Shown: in pieces, positions 1 to 60,335 of the stretch
Layout of the letters: the number at the start of each line of letters is the position of its first letter
How positions within the stretch are numbered: the stretch's first letter is position 1
DNA from: Cyanidioschyzon merolae
Taxonomy: Eukaryota
Reading direction: 5' to 3' (one strand)
Assembly: GCA_000091205.1 (NCBI GenBank)
Contig: AP006501.2
Length of the DNA: 64,000 nt
Position numbers and translations under genes: made by a program
Notes under the pieces: model-generated
Told to the model about the DNA's origin: nothing
Databases searched by the model: none
What the model saw: only the letters and a program-made list of their open reading frames with translations

Positions 1-1444
1 CGACATAGCGTCGAAGCGGACCCAGCGCACCCGTTTGAAAGAGGTAGATCAGGACCGCCAACCCAATAAGGAGCAACAGGCGATCTCGTCCACCATCCTG
101 GCTAAGGAGAATCACCATAAACGTCAGTTTGGAGACCAGTGCCCAGTCAAGTGCCGGCATCCGAACACGAATGGCAATCATCCGAACGGGTATCGCTCCA
201 GCTGCACCAGCACGGAGCATATTTCCCGGAAGCTGGTGACGTTCAGCAGCTTCCAAAGCGCTCCTCGATATCGATGAGCGTGCCGCAGCGCCCGTCCCAT
301 GGCCGCTGGAGGCAGAAAGACCACTCGATTGGCTGTGATTCGCCAGCAGATACGACGGCGGTACCCCGCCTGCCTCATGCGTCGCGTAATACTCTGTTAA
401 GCACCGGTTGTACTCCTCGTATGCTCGAAGCATTCGCGCATATGCCTGTACTAGCTGGAGTGTCTGCTCATCAAGCCGCACATGCAGGCTCGCCTGCTCC
501 GCGTTCGTCGACGCCCTTGCAGCGTCGAGCCTATGCTGCAGATTCCGCGAGTGCTCAGTCCCGTTGTGCTGTTCTTCAGAAGGTTGTCTGGTCTCCTGCT
601 CAGCAGTGGCGTTCGACAGAGCGCGCCACGCTGTCGCTGGAGTTGTTGCGGAGTCTGCATCGAGCGCGCGTTGCTGCTGCGACTGAGGTTGCGACTGACC
701 CTCGTCCAAGGCCCAAGCTTCGTCGAAGAGCGCCGCATCCGAGGATCCCTCCTGTCTACCAGCAGCTACAGCGGAAAGCGCCGGTGAGCGCTCCGCATCA
801 GAAACAGAACCCAGGCGTTCGCGACTAGCGTCGCTAAATGTTAAGACTTCACCAGAGTTTGTGCTTGGCGCAGAATTCACCTCGATGCTAGCAAGGCTCT
901 CCAGCTGTTGCCCGCTAACGACTGCATCCCGCGTTATCCCTGTGGAGCGCTCGGCTGACGTTAGCCCGCGCTCACTAGTCACCACGAGATGAAATACCGC
1001 GAACAGCGGGGGCGAGGCGCTTTCACCGGTCTCCGTACCGTTGCTCCCTACGCAAGAAGATGCTCGGGCGTCGTCGCCAAGCTCCCCGACAACTGCTCGT
1101 GACATACCGACTATTTCTCGAATACACTCTCCGTCCTGCAATAGACGACCTCCGTAAACGAGTCTCTGCTGCTCTGGTGCAGGATGAAAAGGATGCTCCA
1201 GGTGCACTCGACGCTTCAGGTCCCCGACAGTTGACTCGGGCTCAACCGACAATACATAGGAGCGCCCCGCTGCGTCAGATACGATGTTGGGTGTCTTGAG
1301 CAGAACGCGAACTGCACCAGCAGTGCCGTGTGATGCGCTCCGAGCAGTCGAGGAGCACGCTCCGGGTCCCGGTGAGCCTGGTGGTCGCTCCTGATCAGCG
1401 TCGCTCGACTCGGGAGTCCCGCGGGGTACGTCCATCTGGTTCAT
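1..1444 (-). CDS. Partial CDS running off the left window edge: membrane protein with a ubiquitin-like domain, Herp/Usa1-like
   Basis: I translated the minus strand by hand. The frame opens after a stop at plus 1499-1501, has ATGs at minus 1444 and 1435, and stays open to position 1 (at least 480 aa). Residues ~40-115 read ...RVLLKTPNIVSDAAGRSYVLSVEPESTVGDLKRRVHLEHPFHPAPEQQRLVYGGRLLQDGECIREI, which fits a ubiquitin-like fold (QRLI/VYxGxxLxD). A coiled-coil-like middle follows, then hydrophobic segments (LTFMVILLS...LLLLIGLAVLIYLF) near the window edge. It is absent from the ORF track because it is partial. Confidence 0.5.
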   Translation of the reverse strand, partial: MNQMDVPRGTPESSDADQERPPGSPGPGACSSTARSASHGTAGAVRVLLKTPNIVSDAAGRSYVLSVEPESTVGDLKRRVHLEHPFHPAPEQQRLVYGGRLLQDGECIREIVGMSRAVVGELGDDARASSCVGSNGTETGESASPPLFAVFHLVVTSERGLTSAERSTGITRDAVVSGQQLESLASIEVNSAPSTNSGEVLTFSDASRERLGSVSDAERSPALSAVAAGRQEGSSDAALFDEAWALDEGQSQPQSQQQRALDADSATTPATAWRALSNATAEQETRQPSEEQHNGTEHSRNLQHRLDAARASTNAEQASLHVRLDEQTLQLVQAYARMLRAYEEYNRCLTEYYATHEAGGVPPSYLLANHSQSSGLSASSGHGTGAAARSSISRSALEAAERHQLPGNMLRAGAAGAIPVRMIAIRVRMPALDWALVSKLTFMVILLSQDGGRDRLLLLIGLAVLIYLFQTGALGPLRRYV

Positions 1445-2167
1445 CTTATTTGTCAGCGCACAGACGTCGCGCTGTTGCAACTGAAGCTGGTACAGCGGCT
1501 ACTGCTTCCAGGTTCCAGATGCGGTCGTCGCCTCAACTCGGGGGCCAGTGTCTTCTGCCGAAGAGACCTCCCCTTGAACCTGCAGTGCCCTGTTCACAGA
1601 ACTTCTTCACGCAAAGCAGTGTCCAGCAAGTGCCCTTATATAGCCCCGAATGGAAACCTTGATCTGTTTCCGTTGTCGTGCTGGTTGTCCTAGGCGTACA
1701 CCCAGCAAGCTCGAGGCTTCGACTCCAACGCGTCGCAAACAACCGACCGCGTGAGGTGCTGCGGCGTCGATACGCCTGCGAACCGGCTCGCAGTTAGCCT
1801 AGAACGCTGCCGGTTTTCCTGCAGCAGAAACGAGCAGCGCAGGCGCCTTGTAGCGACCAGAGCAGTGGGCATCATCTCTGGATGCCTATTGAAGCTAACG
1901 CTGAGCAAGATTTCAAGACCAGACCAATAGCAGCGTCACTTGGACGGAACGCTTTCGAGTGGTCGTCCAGAGCGGCAGCGCGTGTCCGTACCTGCAGCCG
2001 TTTGCCACAACTGCGTCTGTGCGATCCTCTTTTATACCCAATATAAGGAAGAGGAAAGCGTTTGTGAACGTGGCACCTGCGACCCGTGAGAGCGGTGTGA
2101 GCGCTAAGTTGCAACCCGGTAGCGCTGAGCGTTTTGGAGGCGCACACACGCTTTCCGTTACGGCCTC

Positions 2168-3358
2168 ATGGCTGAGCAGCAGGCGTCCTCTGGATCACAC
2201 AGCGATGAAACCTGGACTCTGGTGGAGCGACGGAAACCTTCCCGACAAGCGGGGACGCGTTTCCCGTTGCTCGCTGGGCACCTGCGCACGAGGCTCGACG
2301 TGGCCTGTGCTGATCAAGAACTCGAGAGCTTCTGGCACTTGTTTACTGCCAAACTGGACCAAGTCACGCAGTTTTCCCGCAAAACCTTTCAAAATTTCAC
2401 GTGCTATAACTTTGAACGCTTTATTGGACTGGGCATCGGGGCCTTTACCAGCGACTGGCGAGCTCAGTGGCAGTTGGCTTGGCTGGTAGCTCTCCAGCGG
2501 TACCTGAAACAGTACACACGAACGGCTGGAGTCGCGAGCGACTGGGTGCTCGTTGAGCCGCAGCTGACAAGTCTGGAAGTAACCTTGGCGAAGAGGCTGG
2601 GGTTTAGGGTTTTTCGTGCCGATCCCAATGCACCCGTGCGTTGTCGTCATTGTCGTCGATCACAGAGCGACGCTGCAGCGCAAGCTGGTGCGCATACCGA
2701 CAGGGTTCCCGCGTCGTCTCGACTCGGTCGATCACAACTACCGCACAGCACCCGTTTCCATGATTATATTAGACCGGACGCGGTGCGAAGACAAAGCAAA
2801 GATTCAGGGAGCGGCTACACCCTGCTATTCATGCCACACTGTGGAATCGGTCTCATAGAACTCGTTTTACAACTTTACTGGGACCAGGATGCACTGAGTC
2901 GACTTCATTTTGTGAGTAGCGATCTTGTCGAGCTGATAACGAGCCACGAACAGCGCTCTGTCGCATTAGCCGCCGAGCGAACGTCATCTGTGCACGGGCG
3001 TGGAAACGCGCTGGTTTCGTGCTCCGACCGGCAACTGCCGCTCGCGAAGGACGCCTCAGGGTCTACGTGCGAAACCAAGGCAGCAGTAGCATCGGCAACT
3101 CAGGAATTACCTTCACTCACTGAACCTTGCTGTATGCTCGCGCTTGCTTCCCAGCACTGTATCCGATGGATCGCTCCAGTAGACCCTGAAGGCTTTAGAA
3201 ATTCCAATGTGCGGCAGGCCGCGTTTCATGGACTCGGGTGGCAATGTATTGAGGATCCGACGACGGCTGCACTGGAAGCGATCCGGCCTGGTGACTGCTC
3301 CACCGATCGTGCGGATCCAGCACAACTCGCGGCCGCGATGCATTACATACCACTTTAG
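2168..3358 (+). CDS. SRR1: SRR1-domain protein
   Basis: True ATG at 2168. It contains ...FIGLGIGAF...QLAWLVAL... and later ...LLFMPHCGIGL...LQLYW, matching the conserved GLG and MPHC blocks of the SRR1 family. Single exon, 396 aa. Confidence 0.55.
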   Translation: MAEQQASSGSHSDETWTLVERRKPSRQAGTRFPLLAGHLRTRLDVACADQELESFWHLFTAKLDQVTQFSRKTFQNFTCYNFERFIGLGIGAFTSDWRAQWQLAWLVALQRYLKQYTRTAGVASDWVLVEPQLTSLEVTLAKRLGFRVFRADPNAPVRCRHCRRSQSDAAAQAGAHTDRVPASSRLGRSQLPHSTRFHDYIRPDAVRRQSKDSGSGYTLLFMPHCGIGLIELVLQLYWDQDALSRLHFVSSDLVELITSHEQRSVALAAERTSSVHGRGNALVSCSDRQLPLAKDASGSTCETKAAVASATQELPSLTEPCCMLALASQHCIRWIAPVDPEGFRNSNVRQAAFHGLGWQCIEDPTTAALEAIRPGDCSTDRADPAQLAAAMHYIPL

Positions 3359-6126
3359 GTGCGAAACGATAGATCAATGGAATTCGTTGTCCATGAAAAG
3401 TACGCTGTCGTGCGTGCGGGGTATACGGCGGCGCTGGAGCGTCGTATGATGCGACACGGTCAACTCGATAGGCAGCATCATTGGGCCGCTTCTCTGGCCG
3501 CTTTACGGAAGCTTTGCTCATGACGCATCGTTTTCGTATGAATGGTGAAAGGAATATGCGGTTATTTCCTTACGATGACGACTCGAGATTTTCAATGAGT
3601 CCACAATCGTGCATGAAAGAATGTCATGTTGGTGCTGGAATGGAGGCTATGACCGGTGCTGTCGGCGTATCGCGGGTTGATAGACTTGGGAATCCGCAAG
3701 AACACCACCGCTGCTGCACAGGGATATTCAGAATGAATGAGATGTAGATGATGGAGGATGTGCTTGTCTCCATGCAGTCATGCATGCGAATTTCATGCGT
3801 GACATGGGAAACAAGGCACGCTTTACTCGGCACGCTCCTGATACCAAGCACATATTTCAGCGCCTCTTCTGGGATACACTGCATGATGAGGACTTGAACC
3901 TTGAGGGATTCCCTTTACCAGCTCGCAGTGAGTCTACATGCAGTTTCGTAGAGCAATCGAATCCGAAACATGACCCAGGGGCGTCTCCCACGTACCTGGA
4001 ATGCCCACGCCCCTGTATCCCATGCTCCATACCAAATTCAGTGTTCTTTCGTGAGCGCGTGCCTGAGACCCGATTATTCTGGTGAAACACGCGCGTTCTC
4101 AAGGGCATTGCACGGTCCATTGACCTTCGAACAATGCTGTCTGGGTCGAGCGACACACGCAGTCTCTAGTGGGGTACGATCTTCACTGCCACCCGAGTGT
4201 TATCCGAACAACGCGTTGGCATCCTCTCGTGCTTATAGTCTTGTGACTCAGTTTCGTTTCGACTCCGCTGCGGCGTACAGCAGGAGACCGAAAGCACGAT
4301 ACCATGTACTGTATAGATTTTAGAAGCATTGCCTGTAGGATATATTGTTTACAAAGCAGCAGAAGGAAGACTGCATTTTCGCTTCAGACAAGTCATACCA
4401 TACTACTCCGATGGTTGAGTAACACTGAAAGAGACATGTAGATGCGTTCCGAGCCAAAAACCGATATTCTCAAGGAATGGTTGCGGTCAATAGTAGAAAG
4501 CGACCCATCGATTACCTTACGTAAACCAAAAGCGACAGCAGTAGCCGCAAGGGGCGTCACTGTTTCTCACCAGCTTATTCTTGCGGTCCTGAAAACACCG
4601 GTATGCGGTCGCAAAAAAACAGCCTTGCTTCACGCATAGTCATCTCGCACCGATATCGAAGCTACGACAGCGTTTCTGGAAAGTCACAATCGGTATGAAG
4701 CACAAGGACGTCGGCTTGTCCTTTTCCAGCCGATGCGACGTCATTCGGACGAAACGGTCGGAGCGTAGAGGGGTATTCGGCGAGCAGGGACTCAGTAGTA
4801 CGTCCGTCCGAACTCGAAGAGAACTGGGATATCAGCATTTGTTCTAGCTGCAGTGGATGCATTTGGCGGCCTCGGTTTGGCTCGAAGATACAGAAACGGA
4901 AGTCGGGGATCCTCGCAAGCTCGGTGCCGCCTGGTGCTGGAGAAAGACGAAAAATCCTCTTCTTCCCGATCATTTAGCGAAGAAGAGCAAGTAACGAAGA
5001 AGAAACAGATGAGGGGAGATGATCGAGAAGAGGTTTTCGCTCGAAAGGACGGTAACGAGACCTTCATGGCACAGCGGGCGTGAATTCAAGGAATCTTGGC
5101 GTTAATGAGTTCAACCAGAGCCAATCAACGCAGCCATCAACATAAGACGATGTCTGGTGCTGCAGACAAGACCCACAGAGCTGACGAGAGCCAGTTTCGT
5201 GTGACAGCCTATCAGCCACGAAAGCTTCTAGGACAAACTAAAACCGATGGCAGACGGTCAGTTAAAAAATGGCTGGGAGGCGTCTGCGAGTGGATAGGTA
5301 TATTTCCCGTCCATGATCATAGGACATTTTGTGATTCTCTGATCGCATATCTTGACAGAGTAGTGCAATAGTCGGCTGGAGTGAGGCGGCTCCTTTTCGC
5401 TCGAGAACCTGCTATGTGCCGGGAGCCGGTTACACTTCAATGATGTAGACACATGCAGCCTGGTACGTTGGGCTGCTTTCTCGAGCCGCGAAATACCCAG
5501 GCACGTTCTGCTGCTTTCGAGCACTGGCGGCAGCGCGGAGAAGCAATCGACATCGCGAAACTGCATTGCGTAGCGGGCCCGAGATGCAAACTGGTCATCT
5601 TCATGGACGACGCTTGTGCGCGATCGGCTCGTCTTGGCATCGAGTCCGTTTACGGCAGACGCTCTTCCGCAGATTTCTGGTCTGGCCTTCATGGCGGGCG
5701 CGCGGTCAAGCCAGTGCTCTGCTTTCGTCTATCAGTGATGCTGCATGAGGCCTGAACGCAGTCACGATTTCGACGGAACTATTTTAATCGCTCAGATGGA
5801 GTCGTGTTCCACATCTCAACCGGGCAGTACATTTGCTTCATCTTGTCAGGTTTGAAACCAGATCACCAACGCGTCTGGTGAAACAGGTCACTAGAGCGTT
5901 CCCCAGCTGTCCCGGATGCAGGCTTGGCGCCACGTGAAAAGCATCCAGCACCAAAGGCTCTGCGATGAGCGGCAAGCACCTGATGATTGCGCATGTGGCT
6001 CGTGATTCCCATAGATACCGATCTGAGGCGTTCGTTGCCCCGCCGGTACGATGCCAGTCGTCAGTGCCGACCATCACATCTCCATGTACCTCGTTGGGGT
6101 CAGGATTCGCAATCTTTGGGATATGC

Positions 6127-48894: not shown

Positions 48895-50695
48895 GCCTCG
48901 CCGTCAGCTGGTGTGCGTAGCCGTTGCCGCTTAGGCCCCAACGGTTCGCCCGTGCGTTGTCCACAAAAGGTCCCCAGTCACCGCCGTTTCCAAGCTGGCC
49001 GTTCTGCCAACGATTTCGCTCTGTGCCGACATCATCCATCTTTGACGAAGGTGAAGCGATACTCCACGCTGCGCAATACAACTGCTCGCCCCGTCAGCCG
49101 CAACCTTCGGGAGACACGCACGCACACCCCCCCAACTGACGCCTACACACGCACGCTCGAACGGAATCGAGATCATCATGCGTGCCGGTGTGCGCAGCAG
49201 CAGCCGGCGCGCGATGCCTTGTCCGAATCACCCAGGCGTCAGCGACGCTTCCGCCTTCGCCGCCTGCTGATCAGCGCAAATGGCGCTTGGCAATGTGGCG
49301 AGGGGGCGGCAGCGGCGCTGTTTTTGCGCCCCTGTGCAGTAGCGCGCTCCTGCCTGGGCGCAACCGCTCAACGGATCGCGGTGTACGCCAGCGCGTGCAC
49401 GATGATACGGAGCGCGCTTCTCGCCTTTCAACTCAATGACGTTCCACATCAAGGTACGTGTCGTCAAATGCTTTTCGCAGTTTGCAGCAGGTGTGTTCGA
49501 AGTATGTTCAACTAAAGCAATAAAAATTCAAGTGGGGGTTATGGGCATGGTAGTTAGGGGTTTCGGAGAGCTCTCCATGCCACGTCCGATGAAAACAAAT
49601 CAAAAAAATTTTCTTCTTGCTGATCATCGGGCGAACGAAAGCAAGTGATGAAGAAGCAGAAGACGAGGAGATATGGGCGAGAAAAGGAGTTTGCCCGACG
49701 AGACAATGCCGAGGTTGTATTGATACAGAGGGCGTGAGTAAGAGGAATGCTTGCATTGTTGACTTCCGCCAGCGGCAATGTACGCGAGGAGCTTATGAAA
49801 CGAGAGTTCAATGCTGGTATCAGTATAAGATGAATTGTGTTGCTGGAGACGGAACCCGAGGCGCTGACGCGAGCCGCCTTTGTAAGGTAACCTCTCAGCG
49901 TCGAAGTGTGCCTGGATAAACTGTAGCGGATACCAGGCAGTCGGTCAAAAAAGGCTGGGAGGCGTCGAAAAGTGGGTGAATAGATATACCCCCATGGTCG
50001 TGACACATTGTTCGTTGTGCTCACCACGTATGTAGATGCTGGTGCGAGCACCGTATGCTATGGCAACAGGGTAATGCTTTCCTATGAGAACGGGCCCTGG
50101 GTCCTTTGGCTCCGATGCCGTCTCGTGCATGCCCGTATGCATCGCATCACGCTCGGCAGCGTGATCGACGAGCCCGTTTGGAGCATGTCACACGTGTGTC
50201 TCGGTGCGGTATAATTTCGGAACTCTCGAATCACCGGTAGAGTCTTTATTGTACTAGAGCTCGCTTTAGCGGCACGACAGACTCGAATGCGTGACGCGTT
50301 GGCGGCCGTCAGAGCGCCACTAAGGGCTGTGGTGGCTCGGCTATCTTGCCCCGGCACATGGACATATTATTCCGTTTCCCCATCATAATCACCAGAGCCG
50401 CATGTTCCATGTCCATCCATACTGCCTGCTCAGATTGCTGCTCAACCGACTACGCTTGTATGGCATACGCATTAGGCCATCGAAGCCAATAGGCGCTTGA
50501 GACTAGAACGCAACAGCTGCAGCCATGCATAGTTGCCTCCTCGTGCGGCTGGCGCCCGCTAATGTTTGCGTTTGCGCAGTCTCATACAAGCGCGGCCTTC
50601 GTCACGTCAACAAAATGAGTCTTATTCGGCACCAGGTGGCGTAGTCGAGCGGTCTCCATCTGAGCATGCGATCGCCACGCACACCTGCAACGACC

Positions 50696-55325: not shown

Positions 55326-56912
55326 CTACACGGCCTGCTCGTTTATCTCACCAAGATGATCGATGCAACTGATTCGCAGCGTCGACGTTGGTTTCTGGAT
55401 GCGGCAACGTCGGCGTATGTCGTCCAGAGCGATCTGAAAATATTCCACCGGACGAGCGGAATCTAGAAACTCATCGTGATCGGCTACATCTCCGTCAACA
55501 TAGTACCCGATATGACCAATGCCATTTGGTGCAAATATGTGCACGAATCCATTGGCGTCTAGTGTTATGCGCGGTGAACGGCCCACTGCATGTAGTGGAT
55601 GACTCGGGCGTTCACTGGCGGAGGCGCCGTTAGTAACAGGTAGCATACGAGTGACCGAAGCGTGTGGTGCATTCGCAACCTGATAAGGAACACGCGCATC
55701 ATGCTCTAGTCGCTCGGGTGATGGTAGTGGTGATGCGGCTGGTTGCGCAGTGAACGAGGCCCAGTCCGGCTCTATCTGCTCTACAACAGCAAGTGCACCA
55801 ACAAAGTGCCGATGGAAATGCAAGCGGCAAGCAGCACTCCTATCCCAGTGCGGTTCGTGTGCCTCCCGCTCTGGATCTGGGTCTTGCACCGTGAAAAGAC
55901 GGTAGAAATAGTCAAAGCCGCGGGCCATGATACCACCACCGCGGCACGGATGCGGAAGCGACAGACAGTGACCCAGTTCATGCAGCATCGCGCCAATTGT
56001 TGTGGAGGCCAAGGCCCAGCGTTCACCGCGACCGGCGCTATCATCGAAGAAGTTAATTGAGTCTACGCGTCTCCGATCACTAAAGCGCTTTGGCACTTCT
56101 GAGAGCGTCTGTGGCCATGCGTACATACCACTGGAGCCAAAGAGCGCTAACGTGCCTCCACCAAGTGCTGTGTGTCCATACACACGGCCTGTGCTCGCAT
56201 CTTTTGACGTGAAAGACATGACAGCCACGTCGATACACTGCTGGCGGTTAGATATGTTCGAGAGCTCCTCAGCAATCATACCCCAGAGCGCGTCACCCGA
56301 AAGTGCATGCAGCTCGGCTCGTGTCCGCGACAGACGCCTTACATGAACAGGTACATCATAGGCGCAGTGAATCTCTTCGATATTCCCTGGCAACGGAGTC
56401 GCACACGCAGCGCTCATACGTTCAATGCAAAAGCTCAAATGACCGAGGCCTTGCTCATGAAGCAACTCTGCGGCAGCTGTTTGCATGAGTCGTAACGCTA
56501 ACGCGAAACGGCGCACGGCGCTCGCAAGCATACAGTCTTCGTCGGGCGGAGCTTGGAAACGCACCTCCACGGCGTCTCGCGGCACGACGTAGACTGCTCG
56601 GACTACATAGTCCCAGGGGACGTCCAGATAGTGAACGCGAAACTGCAGTTTCGCTGGCCCGCTCAGCGGACCCGCAGCGACAAGGTTTACCCCTGGTTGC
56701 AGCCAGACTAACGCTCGAAACCTACCATCGCAGTTGCGCACAGGCCAAGGCGTTCGTTGCTGTTCAGCAACCAAACTACCTGGTTGAGCATTTGCCAAGT
56801 AAACGACGACGCACGTGAGGTGCTCATTGAGCGGCACCTGACCGCATATCAGAAGCAACGGAAACGTTACAGCTTCGTCTGGTCGGAGGTTCTCAACCCG
56901 CCATCGCACCAT
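55326..56912 (-). CDS. Zinc metallopeptidase (HEXXH), putative peptidase family resembling yeast YIL108W
   Basis: True ATG at 56912, 528 aa. GAMLHELGHCLSLPHPCRGGGIMARGFDYFYR contains an HExxH zinc-binding motif with a downstream GL.H-type third-ligand context. Confidence 0.6.
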   Translation of the reverse strand: MVRWRVENLRPDEAVTFPLLLICGQVPLNEHLTCVVVYLANAQPGSLVAEQQRTPWPVRNCDGRFRALVWLQPGVNLVAAGPLSGPAKLQFRVHYLDVPWDYVVRAVYVVPRDAVEVRFQAPPDEDCMLASAVRRFALALRLMQTAAAELLHEQGLGHLSFCIERMSAACATPLPGNIEEIHCAYDVPVHVRRLSRTRAELHALSGDALWGMIAEELSNISNRQQCIDVAVMSFTSKDASTGRVYGHTALGGGTLALFGSSGMYAWPQTLSEVPKRFSDRRRVDSINFFDDSAGRGERWALASTTIGAMLHELGHCLSLPHPCRGGGIMARGFDYFYRLFTVQDPDPEREAHEPHWDRSAACRLHFHRHFVGALAVVEQIEPDWASFTAQPAASPLPSPERLEHDARVPYQVANAPHASVTRMLPVTNGASASERPSHPLHAVGRSPRITLDANGFVHIFAPNGIGHIGYYVDGDVADHDEFLDSARPVEYFQIALDDIRRRCRIQKPTSTLRISCIDHLGEINEQAV

Positions 56913-56920
56913 TCACGCCG

Positions 56921-56943
56921 TTCGAAAGTCGAACGACGCGAAC
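56921..56943 (-). other. Strong RNA hairpin in the 59-nt spacer between the Fanzor stop and the metallopeptidase ATG
   Basis: Minus-strand cgtcgttcga-CUU-tcgaacggcg forms a 10-bp stem (one G-U) with a 3-nt loop. Its core cgttcgaaagtcgaacg (plus 56919-56935) is a perfect 7-bp palindrome. No U-run follows it. Confidence 0.4.
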
Positions 56944-56971
56944 GGTGTACAGTAGTGGCGGCAACCGCGCC

Positions 56972-59185
56972 CTAGACGAAACGTATACAACTGACGTTCA
57001 GACGCCTTCCAGCCTTTTTGGACCGGCCACCCACTACTGCTTCCAACTTTTTCGCATATAGTTCGACTTTGAGGGGTTGCCTAACAACATTCTCTCGTGT
57101 CAACTCCGGAGGTCTCTTCTCCAGCACCGCGCATTTCCTTAGATTGATGGCGGCATTAAAATCTCGATTCACGAATTCCATCCGTTTCTTGCCATCACTG
57201 GCTGTATTCACTAATGCGAGTAATCCTCGCACTTTTGCCCTCCTTTCCATTTGCTCCCCCGTCAGCGGCCCATACTTTTTTATATCCTCAGGGCACCTCT
57301 GGCACTTTTCCATCTCGACCCTCTGAAGTGTACACCCCAGTTCAGGGTGTATATAGGACGTCCGGAACTCATCTATAGGTATCGTAACGAAACGCCGTGC
57401 ACACTCCTTGTATATTCTTGTCGTTGGAGCAGGCGTAGTTCCTTTTTGGGTCTTCCAACACCCTGCCCCATACGCTACGAAGAGCCTCTGACCTTCATCC
57501 TCCTTCAAGGCGCTCAACTGATTGGAAAAAATTCGCGAACGCCCGCTGCCTCCCACCGTATACATTCATACGCACTCGAATCCACCGAGGCTTGGTATAC
57601 TCCTCCCACAGCGCATCCCAATGAGCAACACGAACTTCCATCAATTTCAGAAAAGCCTGAAAGTCCGCATTCCGGCTCGTCACCTCACTCATAGCTTCCA
57701 GGCGATCCTTCATTCCTTCGTTCCATGTCTCAATTTTCTTCCTTGCATTCATTATACCGGATTCCCGATAATATCTTGCTCTCGAGAACCCCAAAGTTCG
57801 CATGTCTTTCTGACGTAAGCTACCGTCAATGACATCTTCCGCACGCTTGGGTGCTGCGATGGTAATGATATTCGTATTCCCAGGGTCCGCGCCAACGACA
57901 AAGTCGTTATCCTCTACCTGCTGCGTCGCTGGATCCTCCTTCTCCTTTTCTCCATGCTTCGTCACGGGCTCAGCCGAAGGCAGGACTGGACGATCTGTCT
58001 TGAACCGCCCATAGTGTACACACATGGCTACTCTATCGGATTCCATCATCCTCTTGAATACCTTTTGTTTACTCATTTTGAGACGTTTGAAATCTAAGAT
58101 ATCCTTCCAGTACGTCTCCCGGTTTTCGCCGGTGAAGTCCTCCCTGCTAGCATCAAACTCGGGATTGATATCCCTCATGATGCCGTTATGGACGCCGAAG
58201 TCGATACTCACAAAATGTGACTTGATGTTGCACAACGGAACGCCGTTGAAGCGCTTTCCCGTTAGGAAAGCCTTCCGTCTCTCCCACTCTTCATTTTTTT
58301 CCCCACTCAGCTTCATCTCTGCCTTGCGTTCGAGCTCTCGGTCCAGAAACACAAAATAGCGCAGGATGAGGCCATGATATCTTTCCTTACCGTTTTTCAA
58401 CTCTGATATCTTTTCTGCTAGATTCGCCAGCCCCAAGTCTGCGCGGCGCTCTTGAATAGCCGCACGGATTACAGAAGCTTCATTCGTGCTCTCGTTTGAC
58501 GCCTTCTTGTCGACGAATTCGATCTCATCTTCACGCTTGCGATCTTTCGTGATGCCGTCGATAATCGCCCATTTTCCATTGCGAGACAGACCCGGGTAGA
58601 GTGCAGCCACGCGCGTATCATGAAACGTTCGAGGTTCATGTTCAAATGGTTCTTCAGATTCGTGAGGTACTTCATAGCCCCATAGTCGTAAATATCCCGG
58701 TCACCCTTGTATCGAGTACCCTCGAAGCAGAATTTCGCGAAGTTTTCGTGGAGGACGTGCACCCGCTCATTTTCCCTCCATGTTTCCTCTGTACCAAGCA
58801 TCAGCTGACGAACAAAGGTCTTATCGAAAAACTCGTCCGGAATCTCGACCATTTCCACGTGCGTCACGTCGCGATACATCTCCCTCACCAAATGCATCAG
58901 TCCTGATGACGCCTTGACAATACTCTTGGAGTACGAATCGACACGGTTCCTAATGGCCTCTCGCAACTTTTGTTTGTGAGGATCCTTGTTATGTTTAAGA
59001 AGACAGGTTTTCACCACCATCTCGTCGTACTGTCTTCTTTCTCGCAGCCTTGGACGTGCGGCCTCCTGCCTTTGCTTCTTCTGCCCTTCCTGTTCTTCTT
59101 CGCCCCGCCATGTTTTTCGTGTTTCTCCACCAACCGGCGACACAGGGCCCCAGGATCCTCCGCTTCCACTTCCATAACTTTCCAT
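56972..59185 (-). CDS. Fanzor (eukaryotic TnpB-like RNA-guided RuvC endonuclease), interrupted: three ORF segments joined by a 46-nt intron and one unresolved frameshift/intron
   Basis: Segment A (59185 down to ~58700, starting [10 protein letters not shown]... at a true ATG) carries a basic stretch [17 protein letters not shown] (NLS-like). Segment B (~58700-57564) carries RuvC-I ...[19 protein letters not shown] (Asp codon at 57887..57885) and the TnpB/Fanzor bridge region ...[15 protein letters not shown]. Segment C (57517-56972) carries ...[20 protein letters not shown]..., RuvC-II ...[19 protein letters not shown]..., Cys-x-Cys spacing (EKCQRC), and RuvC-III ...[17 protein letters not shown] (RD.NAA.N, the TnpB hallmark). 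Total ~720 aa, consistent with Fanzor1-class length. Confidence 0.75.
57518..57563 (-). other. 46-nt spliceosomal mini-intron inside the Fanzor gene
   Basis: Minus-strand sequence: aat|GTATACGGTGGGAGGCAGCGGGCGTTCGCGAATTTTTTCCAATCAG|ttg. It has a GTATAC donor, a pyrimidine tract and a CAG acceptor. Removing it joins ...RVRMN exactly in frame to [21 protein letters not shown]..., which restores the expected TnpB/Fanzor domain order. Without splicing, a stop (57568..57566) separates the frames. Confidence 0.6.
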
Positions 59186-60335
59186 TTTTAATTTTTTATA
59201 ACGCTCTCTGAACGCTTCTGCTCCAAACAGCGAAAAATCACTTGAATACACTTGCTTGAGTGTTGAAACACAATTGAACTGAATAATATACGTTGCTACG
59301 ACTTTAATGAAAATAAAATTTGCCGGGTAGAACAACACGCTACAGATTAGGATTCCATTCCTCTTCAACGGCGACATGCGCGTCGTGTCTCGTGACCACC
59401 TGATCCGGAGGTGCGCGTACCGACCGCGCTATACAAACGAAGAGCAAAAATGAATCATTAAATAGCGACGAGGTAACAATGTCTTTCTTCCTCTACGAGA
59501 AACGTAAAAAGGATGAAAGTTTTTCGTATTGTGGAAAAGTTTACCTTACAGGCGGAGGGTCCTGCGAGCTGGACGATTCTGCTAGGCTGGTGCTCGGTGT
59601 GCCTCTAAAGTGGCGGATGCTGTAGCGAGACCTGCGCAGCTCGTCCGCAACGCAGTTTTTTGGGACTAGGGGCAACAAAGCCGCGTCTGGGCGTCGCCCT
59701 GTTGCGGTGGTCTCCTAGTATATCGTTTCGCGCTGCCGCAGAAAGTACGTCCGTCAGCGCAGCTTGCAGACTCTCAGAACTATTATGTACTCCGAGACGA
59801 TGCCAGGTGCACCACGCCTCGAGCCGACGCCCTCAGTAGTATGGCAAAGCCGTTCTGTCTCCGTGCAGCATCCGCACCAGCGGTAGGCGCTACATCTGGT
59901 GCTGACGCCAGGCACTTGCTGCACGATAGAATGTACGAGACAACCTGTATATCCTCGAGGAAGTATAAGAAATGAAGCTTGAAGGTAAGTGCATCATAGT
60001 GGACGCTTTCCCGAAAGCAAATATCCATCCCGCAATCTGGGATCCATGGTCAATATAAACGTCTTGTCATCGAAATATGCCTCCCGACTGGGGGACGCGT
60101 CAGCGTCGCAGCGCATCGCTGCTGGCGACCCGACGGCTGGACACGTTTCCTCTGCGTATCTGTGCCGCACGGCGCTGCAGTGCCTGGAGACTCCAAGAAG
60201 TGGGGTGTGCGTTTTGTTTGACGGATCGGTAGTGGTTGGGTGTGCTACAGTTCCACGAAGCAAACCGTTCTGCTTAGTTGTGTTCTCTCTAGAGTTCTTT
60301 CCGCGGAGGCCTGAGACTTAGCGAATTTATTTGTT

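What the first reader, a model, noticed from the sequence alone, without database searches (positions are those of the whole stretch)
56972..59185. Fanzor (eukaryotic TnpB-like RNA-guided RuvC nuclease) locus
Three minus-strand ORFs in different frames carry the full TnpB/Fanzor catalytic set in the canonical order. These are RuvC-I ([13 protein letters not shown]), the arginine-rich bridge (...[10 protein letters not shown]), the FVAYGAGCW...TPAPT block, RuvC-II (IPIDEFRTS), Cys spacing ([14 protein letters not shown]), and RuvC-III ([10 protein letters not shown]). TnpB-family nucleases are rare in eukaryotes, and Fanzors were only recently shown to be programmable RNA-guided endonucleases. 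The copy has eukaryotic adaptations: a basic NLS-like stretch ([17 protein letters not shown]), a spliceosomal mini-intron and AT-rich flanks. It looks largely intact, so it may be an active or recently active OMEGA-type system in an alga-like genome.
Basis: partly seen in the sequence, partly recalled or inferred. Interest (0 to 1): 0.92.

Follow-up and report, generated by a model that had tools for sequence, protein, structure and literature searches.

The report
Decayed copy of known Fanzor transposon

Summary
The window comes from Cyanidioschyzon merolae 10D. A profile of the family matches solved Fanzor1 proteins (E = 1.3e-18). An AlphaFold model of an intact paralogue matches Fanzor1 structures in its seven best PDB hits.

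The locus is not new. The published CMe-1A consensus (3169 bp, Bao & Jurka 2013) aligns end to end with window 60072-56916 at 86% identity. The frame-repaired protein is 81% identical to the published CMe-1 Fanzor1 protein, with no gaps.

The locus is not intact. The three ORFs arise from a 1-nt deletion (58612/58611) and a 1-nt insertion (57525), not from an intron. Both indels are absent from 11-13 paralogues. Both are present in all 11 independently assembled orthologous copies from hot-spring metagenomes. Those orthologues differ by 25 non-synonymous and 10 synonymous changes, roughly what I would expect without selection on the protein (my estimate, not computed here).

I also mapped a modular 5' end (TE-N2-like, 60072-59438), a structured 3' end with a terminal hairpin (a candidate omega-RNA, with weak covariation), and the loss of the C4 zinc ribbon in this clade.

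Verdict: already known, low interest.

The parts
56916..60072 (-). Full-length copy of the CMe-1A Fanzor1 transposable element, within the limits of the published consensus
   Evidence: The 3169-bp CMe-1A consensus from Bao & Jurka 2013 Additional file 2 aligns over its positions 1-3169 to window 60072-56916, at 86.2% identity with 16 gap columns. blastn against metagenome loci (89 contigs, about 50 distinct copies) places homology ends at 56905-56917 and 60070-60086.
59438..60072 (-). 5' module that matches the 635-bp TE-N2_CMe-like part of CMe-1A
   Evidence: Bao & Jurka report that the 5' 635 bp of CMe-1A equals TE-N2_CMe. Many metagenome copies begin at 59389-59438 instead and carry other 5' modules. 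Solo copies of this module also exist.
59186..59437 (-). Leader of the Fanzor core upstream of the ATG, locally AT-rich
   Evidence: This stretch is conserved at 70-75% in copies that lack the TE-N2-like module. The sequence was read.
58612..59185 (-). Coding segment A, codons 1-192: basic N-terminus and first REC helices
   Evidence: tblastn of the repaired protein gives 100% identity over residues 1-192. Aligned to homologues.
58611..58612 (-). Frameshift 1: one base deleted between these two positions
   Evidence: Eleven paralogues read cgcgCcgtg or a similar sequence where the window reads cgcg-cgtg. The 11 orthologous metagenome contigs have no indel here relative to the window, so they share this deletion.
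57526..58611 (-). Coding segment B: REC/WED, the RuvC-I motif and the bridge-helix-like [10 protein letters not shown]
   Evidence: The RuvC-I Asp codon is at 57885-57887 within [13 protein letters not shown]. This Asp is invariant in 123 family members.
57524..57525 (-). Frameshift 2: one extra C after a run of six T
   Evidence: Thirteen paralogues read tttttt-caat where the window reads ttttttCcaat. The 11 orthologous metagenome contigs have no indel here relative to the window, so they share this insertion.
56972..57524 (-). Coding segment C: the RuvC-II strand without Glu (FVAYGAG), the relocated Glu (IPIDEFRTS), a degenerate TNB region, RuvC-III ([10 protein letters not shown]) and the stop codon
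   Evidence: The Glu codon is at 57368-57370 and the Asp codon at 57161-57163. Both residues are invariant in the 123-sequence alignment and align to DEFRTS and NRD of Parasitella Fanzor1.
56916..57045 (-). Conserved, structured 3' end that overlaps the end of the ORF; candidate omega-RNA scaffold (inferred)
   Evidence: RNA folding gives z = -3.8 for the window copy and z = -3.5 for the intact paralogue L001, with the same helices. On 33 copies, 75% of cells are paired against 35-53% when partners are slid. Eighteen pairs change on both sides against 10.5 +/- 1.9 in shuffles, but the covariation score is only marginal (34/500).
56907..56947 (-). Terminal hairpin: 19-nt arms, 3-nt loop, with G.T/G.U at the three non-Watson-Crick positions
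   Evidence: Inverted repeat I1, also present in the fold. The 7-bp core CGTTCGA/TCGAACG is conserved in one subfamily of copies. A second subfamily has ACAACG...CGTTGT. The outer part of the stem shows no significant copy-specific covariation.

Best explanation
Window 60072-56916 (minus strand) is one full-length but inactivated copy of CMe-1A, the Fanzor1-carrying transposable element family of Cyanidioschyzon merolae.

When intact, the family encodes a protein of about 735 aa that is a TnpB-type, omega-RNA-guided RuvC endonuclease. It has the RuvC-I Asp, the Fanzor-type relocated RuvC-II Glu in DEFRTS, and the RuvC-III Asp in NRD. By analogy with characterised Fanzor1 systems, the guide RNA would come from the conserved, structured 3' end of the element, which overlaps the end of the ORF and reads out into the flank.

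This copy carries a 1-nt deletion and a 1-nt insertion that split the ORF into three pieces, so it cannot make the nuclease. It is an old insertion carried by all 11 sampled environmental relatives, and its coding sequence shows no sign of purifying selection.

Shown here: identity with CMe-1A, the Fanzor1 fold and motifs, the two indels, and their presence in independent assemblies. Inferred: RNA-guided cleavage by intact family members, and the omega-RNA role of the 3' end.
For: Origin: three window proteins are identical to C. merolae 10D proteins.

Identity with the known family:
- The published CMe-1A consensus aligns end to end at 86.2% identity.
- The repaired protein is 81% identical over 725 residues, with no gaps, to the consensus Fanzor1 protein translated from that published CMe-1A sequence (734 aa; it matches the CMe-1 protein in Additional file 3).
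- The family is described in PMC3627910 as about 150 copies of about 3 kb, without TIRs.

Fanzor1 membership:
- A 123-sequence profile hits Parasitella Fanzor1 (9cf0) at E = 1.3e-18 and Guillardia Fanzor1 (9cer) at E = 9.5e-4.
- The AlphaFold model of the intact paralogue P0001 has pLDDT 84 and pTM 0.82.
- Its seven best Foldseek PDB hits are all Fanzor1 structures. The best is SpuFz1 9cez, E = 1.6e-16, TM-score 0.72 normalised to the target. Cas12, Fanzor2 and TnpB follow.
- The Asp, Glu and Asp are invariant across the family.

Inactivation:
- Single-nucleotide indels relative to 11-13 paralogues.
- The same copy occurs in 11 metagenome contigs (several sequencing projects) at 99.5-99.9% identity with no gap at either site.
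- The 35 coding polymorphisms split into 25 non-synonymous and 10 synonymous.
- Substitutions at nearly invariant positions.
Against: The catalytic residues are all still present, and the copy has no in-frame stop once the two indels are repaired. The decay is therefore modest, and expression of the RNA or of protein fragments cannot be excluded. No transcript data could be examined. The 3' RNA structure has only modest covariation support. No omega-RNA has been shown for this family.
Confidence: 0.9

Rival explanations
1. One reading: an intact, active or recently active Fanzor gene whose three ORFs are joined by splicing of a mini-intron, or by programmed recoding.
For: All catalytic motifs are present in the canonical order. 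The second frame change lies next to a run of six T that could in principle slip.
Against: Homology to the consensus protein crosses both junctions with no gaps once one base is restored at the first and one removed at the second. This leaves no room for an intron. Paralogues lack both indels. The first site has no slippery sequence. Two independent recoding events would be needed. The 25:10 ratio of non-synonymous to synonymous changes in the population gives no sign of selection on the protein. Nearly invariant residues are replaced.
Confidence: 0.03
2. The frameshifts are errors in the reference assembly, and the real gene is intact.
For: Both indels sit in short homopolymer or dinucleotide contexts.
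Against: Eleven metagenome contigs from several JGI and ENA projects carry the same copy at 99.5-99.9% identity, with no gap at either position.
Confidence: 0.01
3. The copy is dead as a nuclease gene but has been co-opted. Its 3' end would serve as promoter or 5' UTR for the zinc-metalloprotease gene that starts 3 nt after the element. Alternatively, it would supply an omega-RNA in trans to Fanzor protein made by intact copies.
For: The metalloprotease ATG (56912-56910) lies 3 nt beyond the published element end and on the same strand. This arrangement is retained in all sampled environmental relatives. The 3' end folds stably.
Against: No expression data are available. Retention could be simple hitch-hiking of a neutral insertion. 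The 3' region of this copy is no more conserved than the rest of the element among the orthologous copies.
Confidence: 0.1

Closest known systems
CMe-1A / CMe-1 Fanzor1 element of Cyanidioschyzon merolae (Bao & Jurka 2013, Mob DNA 4:12; PMC3627910)
   Same: Same genome. There is an end-to-end alignment to the 3169-bp consensus at 86% identity. The protein is 81% identical with no gaps. The 5' 635-bp TE-N2-like module is the same. No TIRs are present.
   Different: This individual copy has two frameshifts and is about 14% diverged from the consensus. Its 3' hairpin is of the CGTTCGA/TCGAACG type, whereas the consensus has the GCAGCG...GAAAGGCG type.
Structurally characterised Fanzor1 nucleases: SpuFz1 (8GKH, 9CEU-9CEZ), PpFz1 (9CF0-3) and GtFz1 (9CER-T)
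   Same: The overall fold matches (TM-score 0.72 to SpuFz1 normalised to the target; the seven best PDB hits are all Fanzor1). The DPG, DE[FY][RK]T and NRD catalytic motifs are shared. The RuvC-II strand lacks the canonical Glu.
   Different: Sequence identity is only 12-15%. The CxxC...CxxC zinc ribbon of the TNB domain, which is visible in the SpuFz1 and PpFz1 sequences, is not conserved in this clade. The transposon context also differs: SpuFz1 sits between 33-bp TIRs with TA duplications, and here there are no TIRs. No activity, TAM or omega-RNA is known for this family.
CRe-1/2/3 Fanzor1 elements in Helitron2 transposons of Chlamydomonas reinhardtii (Bao & Jurka 2013; CrFNuc in PMC10530073)
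   Same: Both are algal Fanzor1 elements without TIRs. Both have a conserved 3' end with a hairpin, variable or truncated 5' ends, and T-rich sequence at the insertion boundaries. The more distant relatives retrieved include two named green-algal proteins, from Tetrabaena and Chlamydomonas.
   Different: No Helitron2 hallmarks could be established here. I found no convincing asymmetric terminal inverted repeats, no target-site duplications and no RepHel partner. The published authors left CMe-1A unclassified.
Bacterial TnpB with omega-RNA (IS200/IS605, e.g. ISDra2; 8H1J)
   Same: Both have a RuvC nuclease core. In both, an RNA is encoded at the 3' end of the element and overlaps the end of the ORF. 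The fold match has probability 1.0.
   Different: The match covers only the RuvC/TNB core (about 270 columns, TM-score 0.29 to the target). The eukaryotic protein has a much larger REC/WED part, a relocated Glu and no TnpA partner.

Membership tests
CMe-1A transposable element family (C. merolae) | Nucleotide homology to the family consensus over its full length | tested here: met
   Consensus positions 1-3169 align to window 60072-56916 at 86.2% identity. The family is described as about 80% identical to its consensus.
CMe-1A transposable element family (C. merolae) | Encodes the CMe-1 Fanzor1 protein (734 aa, single exon) | tested here: met
   586 of 725 residues are identical, with no gaps, after repair of the two single-base indels. 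As it stands, the ORF is broken.
CMe-1A transposable element family (C. merolae) | No terminal inverted repeats; the 5' 635 bp equals TE-N2_CMe | tested here: met
   No inverted repeat links the two ends. A module boundary at about 59438 is seen in many copies. TE-N2_CMe itself was not available for comparison.
Fanzor1 | TnpB/Cas12-type RuvC fold with the bilobed Fanzor1 architecture | tested here: met
   Tested on the intact paralogue P0001, which is 66-74% identical to the window protein. The seven best Foldseek PDB hits are Fanzor1 structures, E = 1.6e-16 to 1.6e-13. The family profile matches PpFz1 at E = 1.3e-18.
Fanzor1 | Catalytic Asp (RuvC-I), relocated Glu (DE[FY]RT) and Asp (RuvC-III, NRD) | tested here: met
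   D434, E606 and D675 of the repaired protein are invariant in alignments of 12 and 123 sequences. They align to the corresponding PpFz1 motifs. The canonical RuvC-II strand reads AYGAG, without an acidic residue, as described for Fanzors. The three-dimensional geometry of the triad was not measured.
Fanzor1 | C4 zinc ribbon between [TS][TS] and RD (motif of Bao & Jurka 2013; Pfam PF07282) | tested here: not met
   The window copy has only C-x10-C-x2-C. The third Cys is absent from the consensus, and distant members have none of these cysteines. The Pfam TNB match is below threshold (E = 0.22). A minority of relatives do carry PF07282.
Fanzor1 | Associated omega-RNA encoded at the 3' end, with the guide reading into the flank | tested here: inconclusive
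   The 3' end is conserved and structured (z = -3.8 and -3.5). Covariation is modest and RNAalifold gives only a weak consensus. There are no RNA data.
Fanzor1 | RNA-guided, TAM-dependent cleavage of double-stranded DNA | not testable with these tools
   This needs biochemistry with an intact family member.
Helitron2 non-autonomous element (considered, not adopted) | 5' and 3' hairpins, asymmetric terminal inverted repeats, insertion at T-runs | tested here: inconclusive
   A 3' hairpin is present. Flanks are T-rich on the 5' side and begin with TT on the 3' side in 24 of 26 copies. However, the T-runs may belong to the element, and no convincing ATIR was found. A RepHel partner could not be sought, because the genome is not in the searchable collections.

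The most novel reading that the evidence does not exclude
The conserved 3'-terminal 130-160 nt of the CMe-1A core (window 57045-56905: helices overlapping the ORF end plus the terminal hairpin) would be the omega-RNA of a still-active Fanzor1 lineage. At least one uninterrupted ORF survives in hot-spring populations (P0001 on L001). Intact members would then be naturally heat- and acid-adapted RNA-guided nucleases that lack the usual zinc ribbon. The core would be mobilised with interchangeable 5' modules by a rolling-circle-like mechanism that targets T-runs. None of this concerns the window copy itself, which would remain a dead relic.
Probability: 0.2. Interest if true: 0.45.

Novelty: already known. 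Interest (0 to 1): 0.12.

Why it matters
The finding has little value as a discovery, because the family, its Fanzor1 protein and its presence in this genome were published in 2013. Its value is as a calibration case. A motif-level reading correctly recognised a Fanzor, but it mistook two frameshifts for splicing and mistook a decayed copy for an active system.

Three minor additions could help anyone who wants to test a thermoacidophile Fanzor1:
- Most metagenome copies are broken. Only one of about 50 distinct copies has an uninterrupted ORF.
- The Fanzor core occurs with different 5' modules.
- The 3' end carries a conserved hairpin and folded region that is the obvious place to look for the guide RNA.

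Tried and rejected
- Pfam on the separate ORFs and on the repaired protein gave only a sub-threshold TNB hit. Searches of the PDB with the single sequence and with a 12-sequence profile gave only weak Fanzor1 hits (E = 0.2 and 0.08). A 123-sequence profile was needed.
- The repaired protein could not be submitted for structure prediction, so the intact paralogue P0001 was modelled instead.
- An exact look-up of the neighbouring protease in the contig index failed. The organism was identified through cluster members instead.
- No tRNA genes or Rfam matches were found in the window.
- RNAalifold on 33 copies of the 3' end recovered only two short helices with no compensatory changes.
- I tested whether the outer part of the terminal hairpin covaries copy by copy. 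It does not: self versus cross pairing is 8.0 versus 7.7, permutation p about 0.08. Only the core hairpin is therefore claimed.
- A search for terminal inverted repeats between the two element ends was negative.
- Target-site preference could not be settled. T-rich boundary sequence may be part of the element, since several copies share a further roughly 14 nt upstream of the published 5' end.
- I considered a Helitron2 classification and did not adopt it.
Full report
**What is there.** The minus strand of window 56972-59377 carries three ORFs of 302, 371 and 197 codons. The first and third are in the same frame and the second is in another. The stretch from the ATG at 59185 to the stop at 56972 matches the coordinates given. 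GC content of the region is 0.48-0.51, against about 0.55 for the window, and the plus strand has a strongly negative GC skew.

**Where the window comes from.** Exact look-ups of three neighbouring ORFs return Cyanidioschyzon merolae strain 10D proteins on a 1,282,939-bp record. These are a MYG1-family protein (BAM82727), sulfate adenylyltransferase (BAM82734) and a zinc metalloprotease (BAM82735). The host is therefore a unicellular red alga from acidic hot springs. Its genome is compact, and most of the large ORFs in the window carry recognisable eukaryotic domains.

**Is it a Fanzor?** Direct searches were weak.
- Pfam gave only a sub-threshold Cas12f1-like TNB hit.
- A single-sequence PDB search gave SpuFz1 at E = 0.2.
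- A 12-sequence profile gave GtFz1 at E = 0.08.

The protein database returned 44 close relatives, almost all from JGI hot-spring metagenomes, plus a few at 28-40% identity. A second search seeded with the distant ones opened a large family that includes two named green-algal proteins, from Tetrabaena and Chlamydomonas. The database labels most of these only with Pfam DUF8286, and a few with PF07282.

A 123-sequence profile then gave clear results.
- It matches Parasitella parasitica Fanzor1 (9cf0) at E = 1.3e-18 and Guillardia theta Fanzor1 (9cer) at E = 9.5e-4. The DPG, DEFRT and NRD motifs are aligned.
- The same profile finds 6191 clusters at 50% identity in the representative library.
- An AlphaFold model of the intact paralogue P0001 has mean pLDDT 84 and pTM 0.82.
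- Its seven best Foldseek hits in the PDB are all Fanzor1 structures. The best is SpuFz1, E = 1.6e-16, TM-score 0.72 normalised to the target. Cas12 variants, Fanzor2 and TnpB follow.

The Asp of FVVGADPG, the Glu of IDEFRTS and the Asp of NRDFNAA are invariant across the family. The strand FVAYGAG occupies the place of the canonical RuvC-II strand and has no acidic residue. This is the relocated-glutamate arrangement reported for Fanzors (PMC10530073). The identification as Fanzor1 is therefore correct.

**It is already described.** Bao & Jurka (2013, PMC3627910) list one Fanzor1 family in C. merolae, CMe-1A. They describe about 150 copies, each about 80% identical to a consensus of about 3 kb. 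The family has no TIRs, and its target-site duplications are undetermined. Its 5' 635 bp are 95% identical to a second repeat, TE-N2_CMe, and some copies are still intact. Their supplementary files give the 3169-bp consensus and a 734-aa protein. The consensus aligns over its whole length to window 60072-56916 on the minus strand, at 86.2% identity with 16 gap columns. The frame-repaired window protein is 81% identical to the consensus protein over 725 residues with no gaps. The finding is thus one full-length copy of a published family.

**It is not intact, and there is no intron.** I aligned the two junctions with 11-13 paralogous copies. The window has lost one base between 58612 and 58611, and has gained one C at 57525 after a run of six T. 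With those two corrections the reading frame is open from 59185 to 56972. It is collinear with the consensus protein without a single gap, so an intron would have nothing to remove.

The indels are not assembly errors. The same copy sits in the same genomic context (upstream of the metalloprotease gene) in 11 contigs from several independent metagenome assemblies. These are 99.5-99.9% identical to the window and have no gap at either site. One of them has a further 1-nt insertion.

Across those orthologous copies, the 35 polymorphisms inside the repaired ORF are 25 non-synonymous and 10 synonymous. That is roughly what I would expect without selection on the protein (my estimate; a neutral expectation was not computed). 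The copy also departs from the family at nearly invariant positions, reading FKRMMESDR where the consensus is FTGTIxTDG. Among about 50 distinct copies recovered from metagenomes, only one (L001, protein P0001) has an uninterrupted ORF running from the N-terminal motif to RuvC-III.

**Anatomy of the element.** blastn against the metagenome loci (89 contigs, about 50 distinct copies) places the 3' ends of homology at 56905-56917. The 5' ends fall either at 60070-60086 or at 59389-59438.
- The segment 60072-59438 (635 bp) corresponds to the TE-N2-like module.
- Copies that start near 59438 carry at least two other unrelated 5' modules or unique sequence. One of those modules contains the palindrome GGACACGTGTCC.
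- Solo copies of the TE-N2-like module also occur.

The Fanzor core of about 2.5 kb therefore has a constant 3' end and interchangeable 5' ends. No inverted repeat joins the two termini, in agreement with the published description.

**The 3' end.** The strongest inverted repeat in the element is a terminal hairpin at 56907-56947 with 19-nt arms. The three non-complementary positions are all G.T, which would be G.U in RNA of this strand. The last roughly 130 nt fold with z = -3.8 in the window copy and z = -3.5 in the intact paralogue. Both show the same set of helices, including a long-range stem between GCAGTAGTGG inside the ORF and CCACTACTGT after the stop.

I tested that structure on 33 copies.
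- 75% of cells are paired, against 35-53% when the partners are slid.
- 18 pairs show changes on both sides, against 10.5 +/- 1.9 in shuffles.
- The covariation score is only marginally above shuffles (34 of 500).
- RNAalifold alone recovers little.
- The outer part of the terminal stem does not covary copy by copy.

I therefore regard this region as a plausible omega-RNA scaffold, by analogy with characterised Fanzor and TnpB loci in which the guide RNA overlaps the ORF end and reads into the flank (PMC10530073; PMC11423790). It is not demonstrated.

**How this clade differs from textbook Fanzor1.** The C4 zinc ribbon in the 2013 motif definition is not conserved here. The window copy has three cysteines, one of which is private to it, and distant members have none at those positions. 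Several paralogues have expanded a unit of about 23 aa, just before RuvC-I, into 2-5 tandem copies. These are disordered in the model.

**Verdict.** The claims of intactness, splicing and novelty are not supported. The locus is a decayed member of a known family, and interest is low.

Noticed in passing
window 56905-56916 and 55326-56912 (minus strand): The zinc-metalloprotease gene (BAM82735, Pfam Metallopep, E = 5e-68) begins with an ATG at 56912-56910. That is only 3 nt after the published 3' end of the CMe-1A copy, and inside the 3' arm of its terminal hairpin. The gene's promoter and 5' UTR must therefore lie within the transposon, or the gene is co-transcribed with it. The arrangement is kept in all 11 orthologous metagenome contigs recovered.
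   Followed up: partly
window 49728-49966 (+), 5124-5267 (+), 40283-40357 (+): Three further short relics of Fanzor1 elements, all from the 3' part of the gene (residues about 600-731). They are 48-56% identical at the protein level, and the first is 68% identical to the CMe-1A consensus in DNA. This fits a family whose fragments are mostly 3' ends.
   Followed up: partly
loci L069, L037, L085, L056, L020, L081, L029, L084 (about 160 nt upstream of the position matching window 59438); also L011/L018: The Fanzor core is joined to at least two other 5' modules in place of the TE-N2-like one. One of them contains the perfect 12-nt palindrome GGACACGTGTCC. The published description mentions only the TE-N2_CMe relationship.
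   Followed up: partly
L001 11226-11374; proteins P0001, P0007, P0010; window 57890-57966: A unit of about 69-78 nt (about 23 aa, ...DNDLVVDA.KHEE.KEA...Q.VQ) lies immediately before the RuvC-I motif. It is tandemly expanded to 2-5 copies in some paralogues and predicted disordered (P0001 residues 375-469). The window copy has a single unit.
   Followed up: no
flanks of about 14 (5') and 26 (3') non-redundant copies in L010-L089 and the window: Relative to the published consensus ends, the 5' flank is T-rich (T at 8-12 of 14 copies at each of positions -6 to -1). The 3' flank starts with TT in 24 of 26 copies, often followed by GTTGGTG. Either the consensus is about 10 nt short at both ends, or the family inserts into T-runs, as reported for Chlamydomonas Helitron2 elements.
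   Followed up: partly
protein family (alignment A3; P0141-P0381): The database labels these Fanzor1 proteins mainly with Pfam PF26935 (DUF8286), a domain of unknown function. The TnpB-type TNB model PF07282 is called on only a few. The family profile finds 6191 clusters at 50% identity, so a large Fanzor1 clade appears to be annotated only as a DUF.
   Followed up: no
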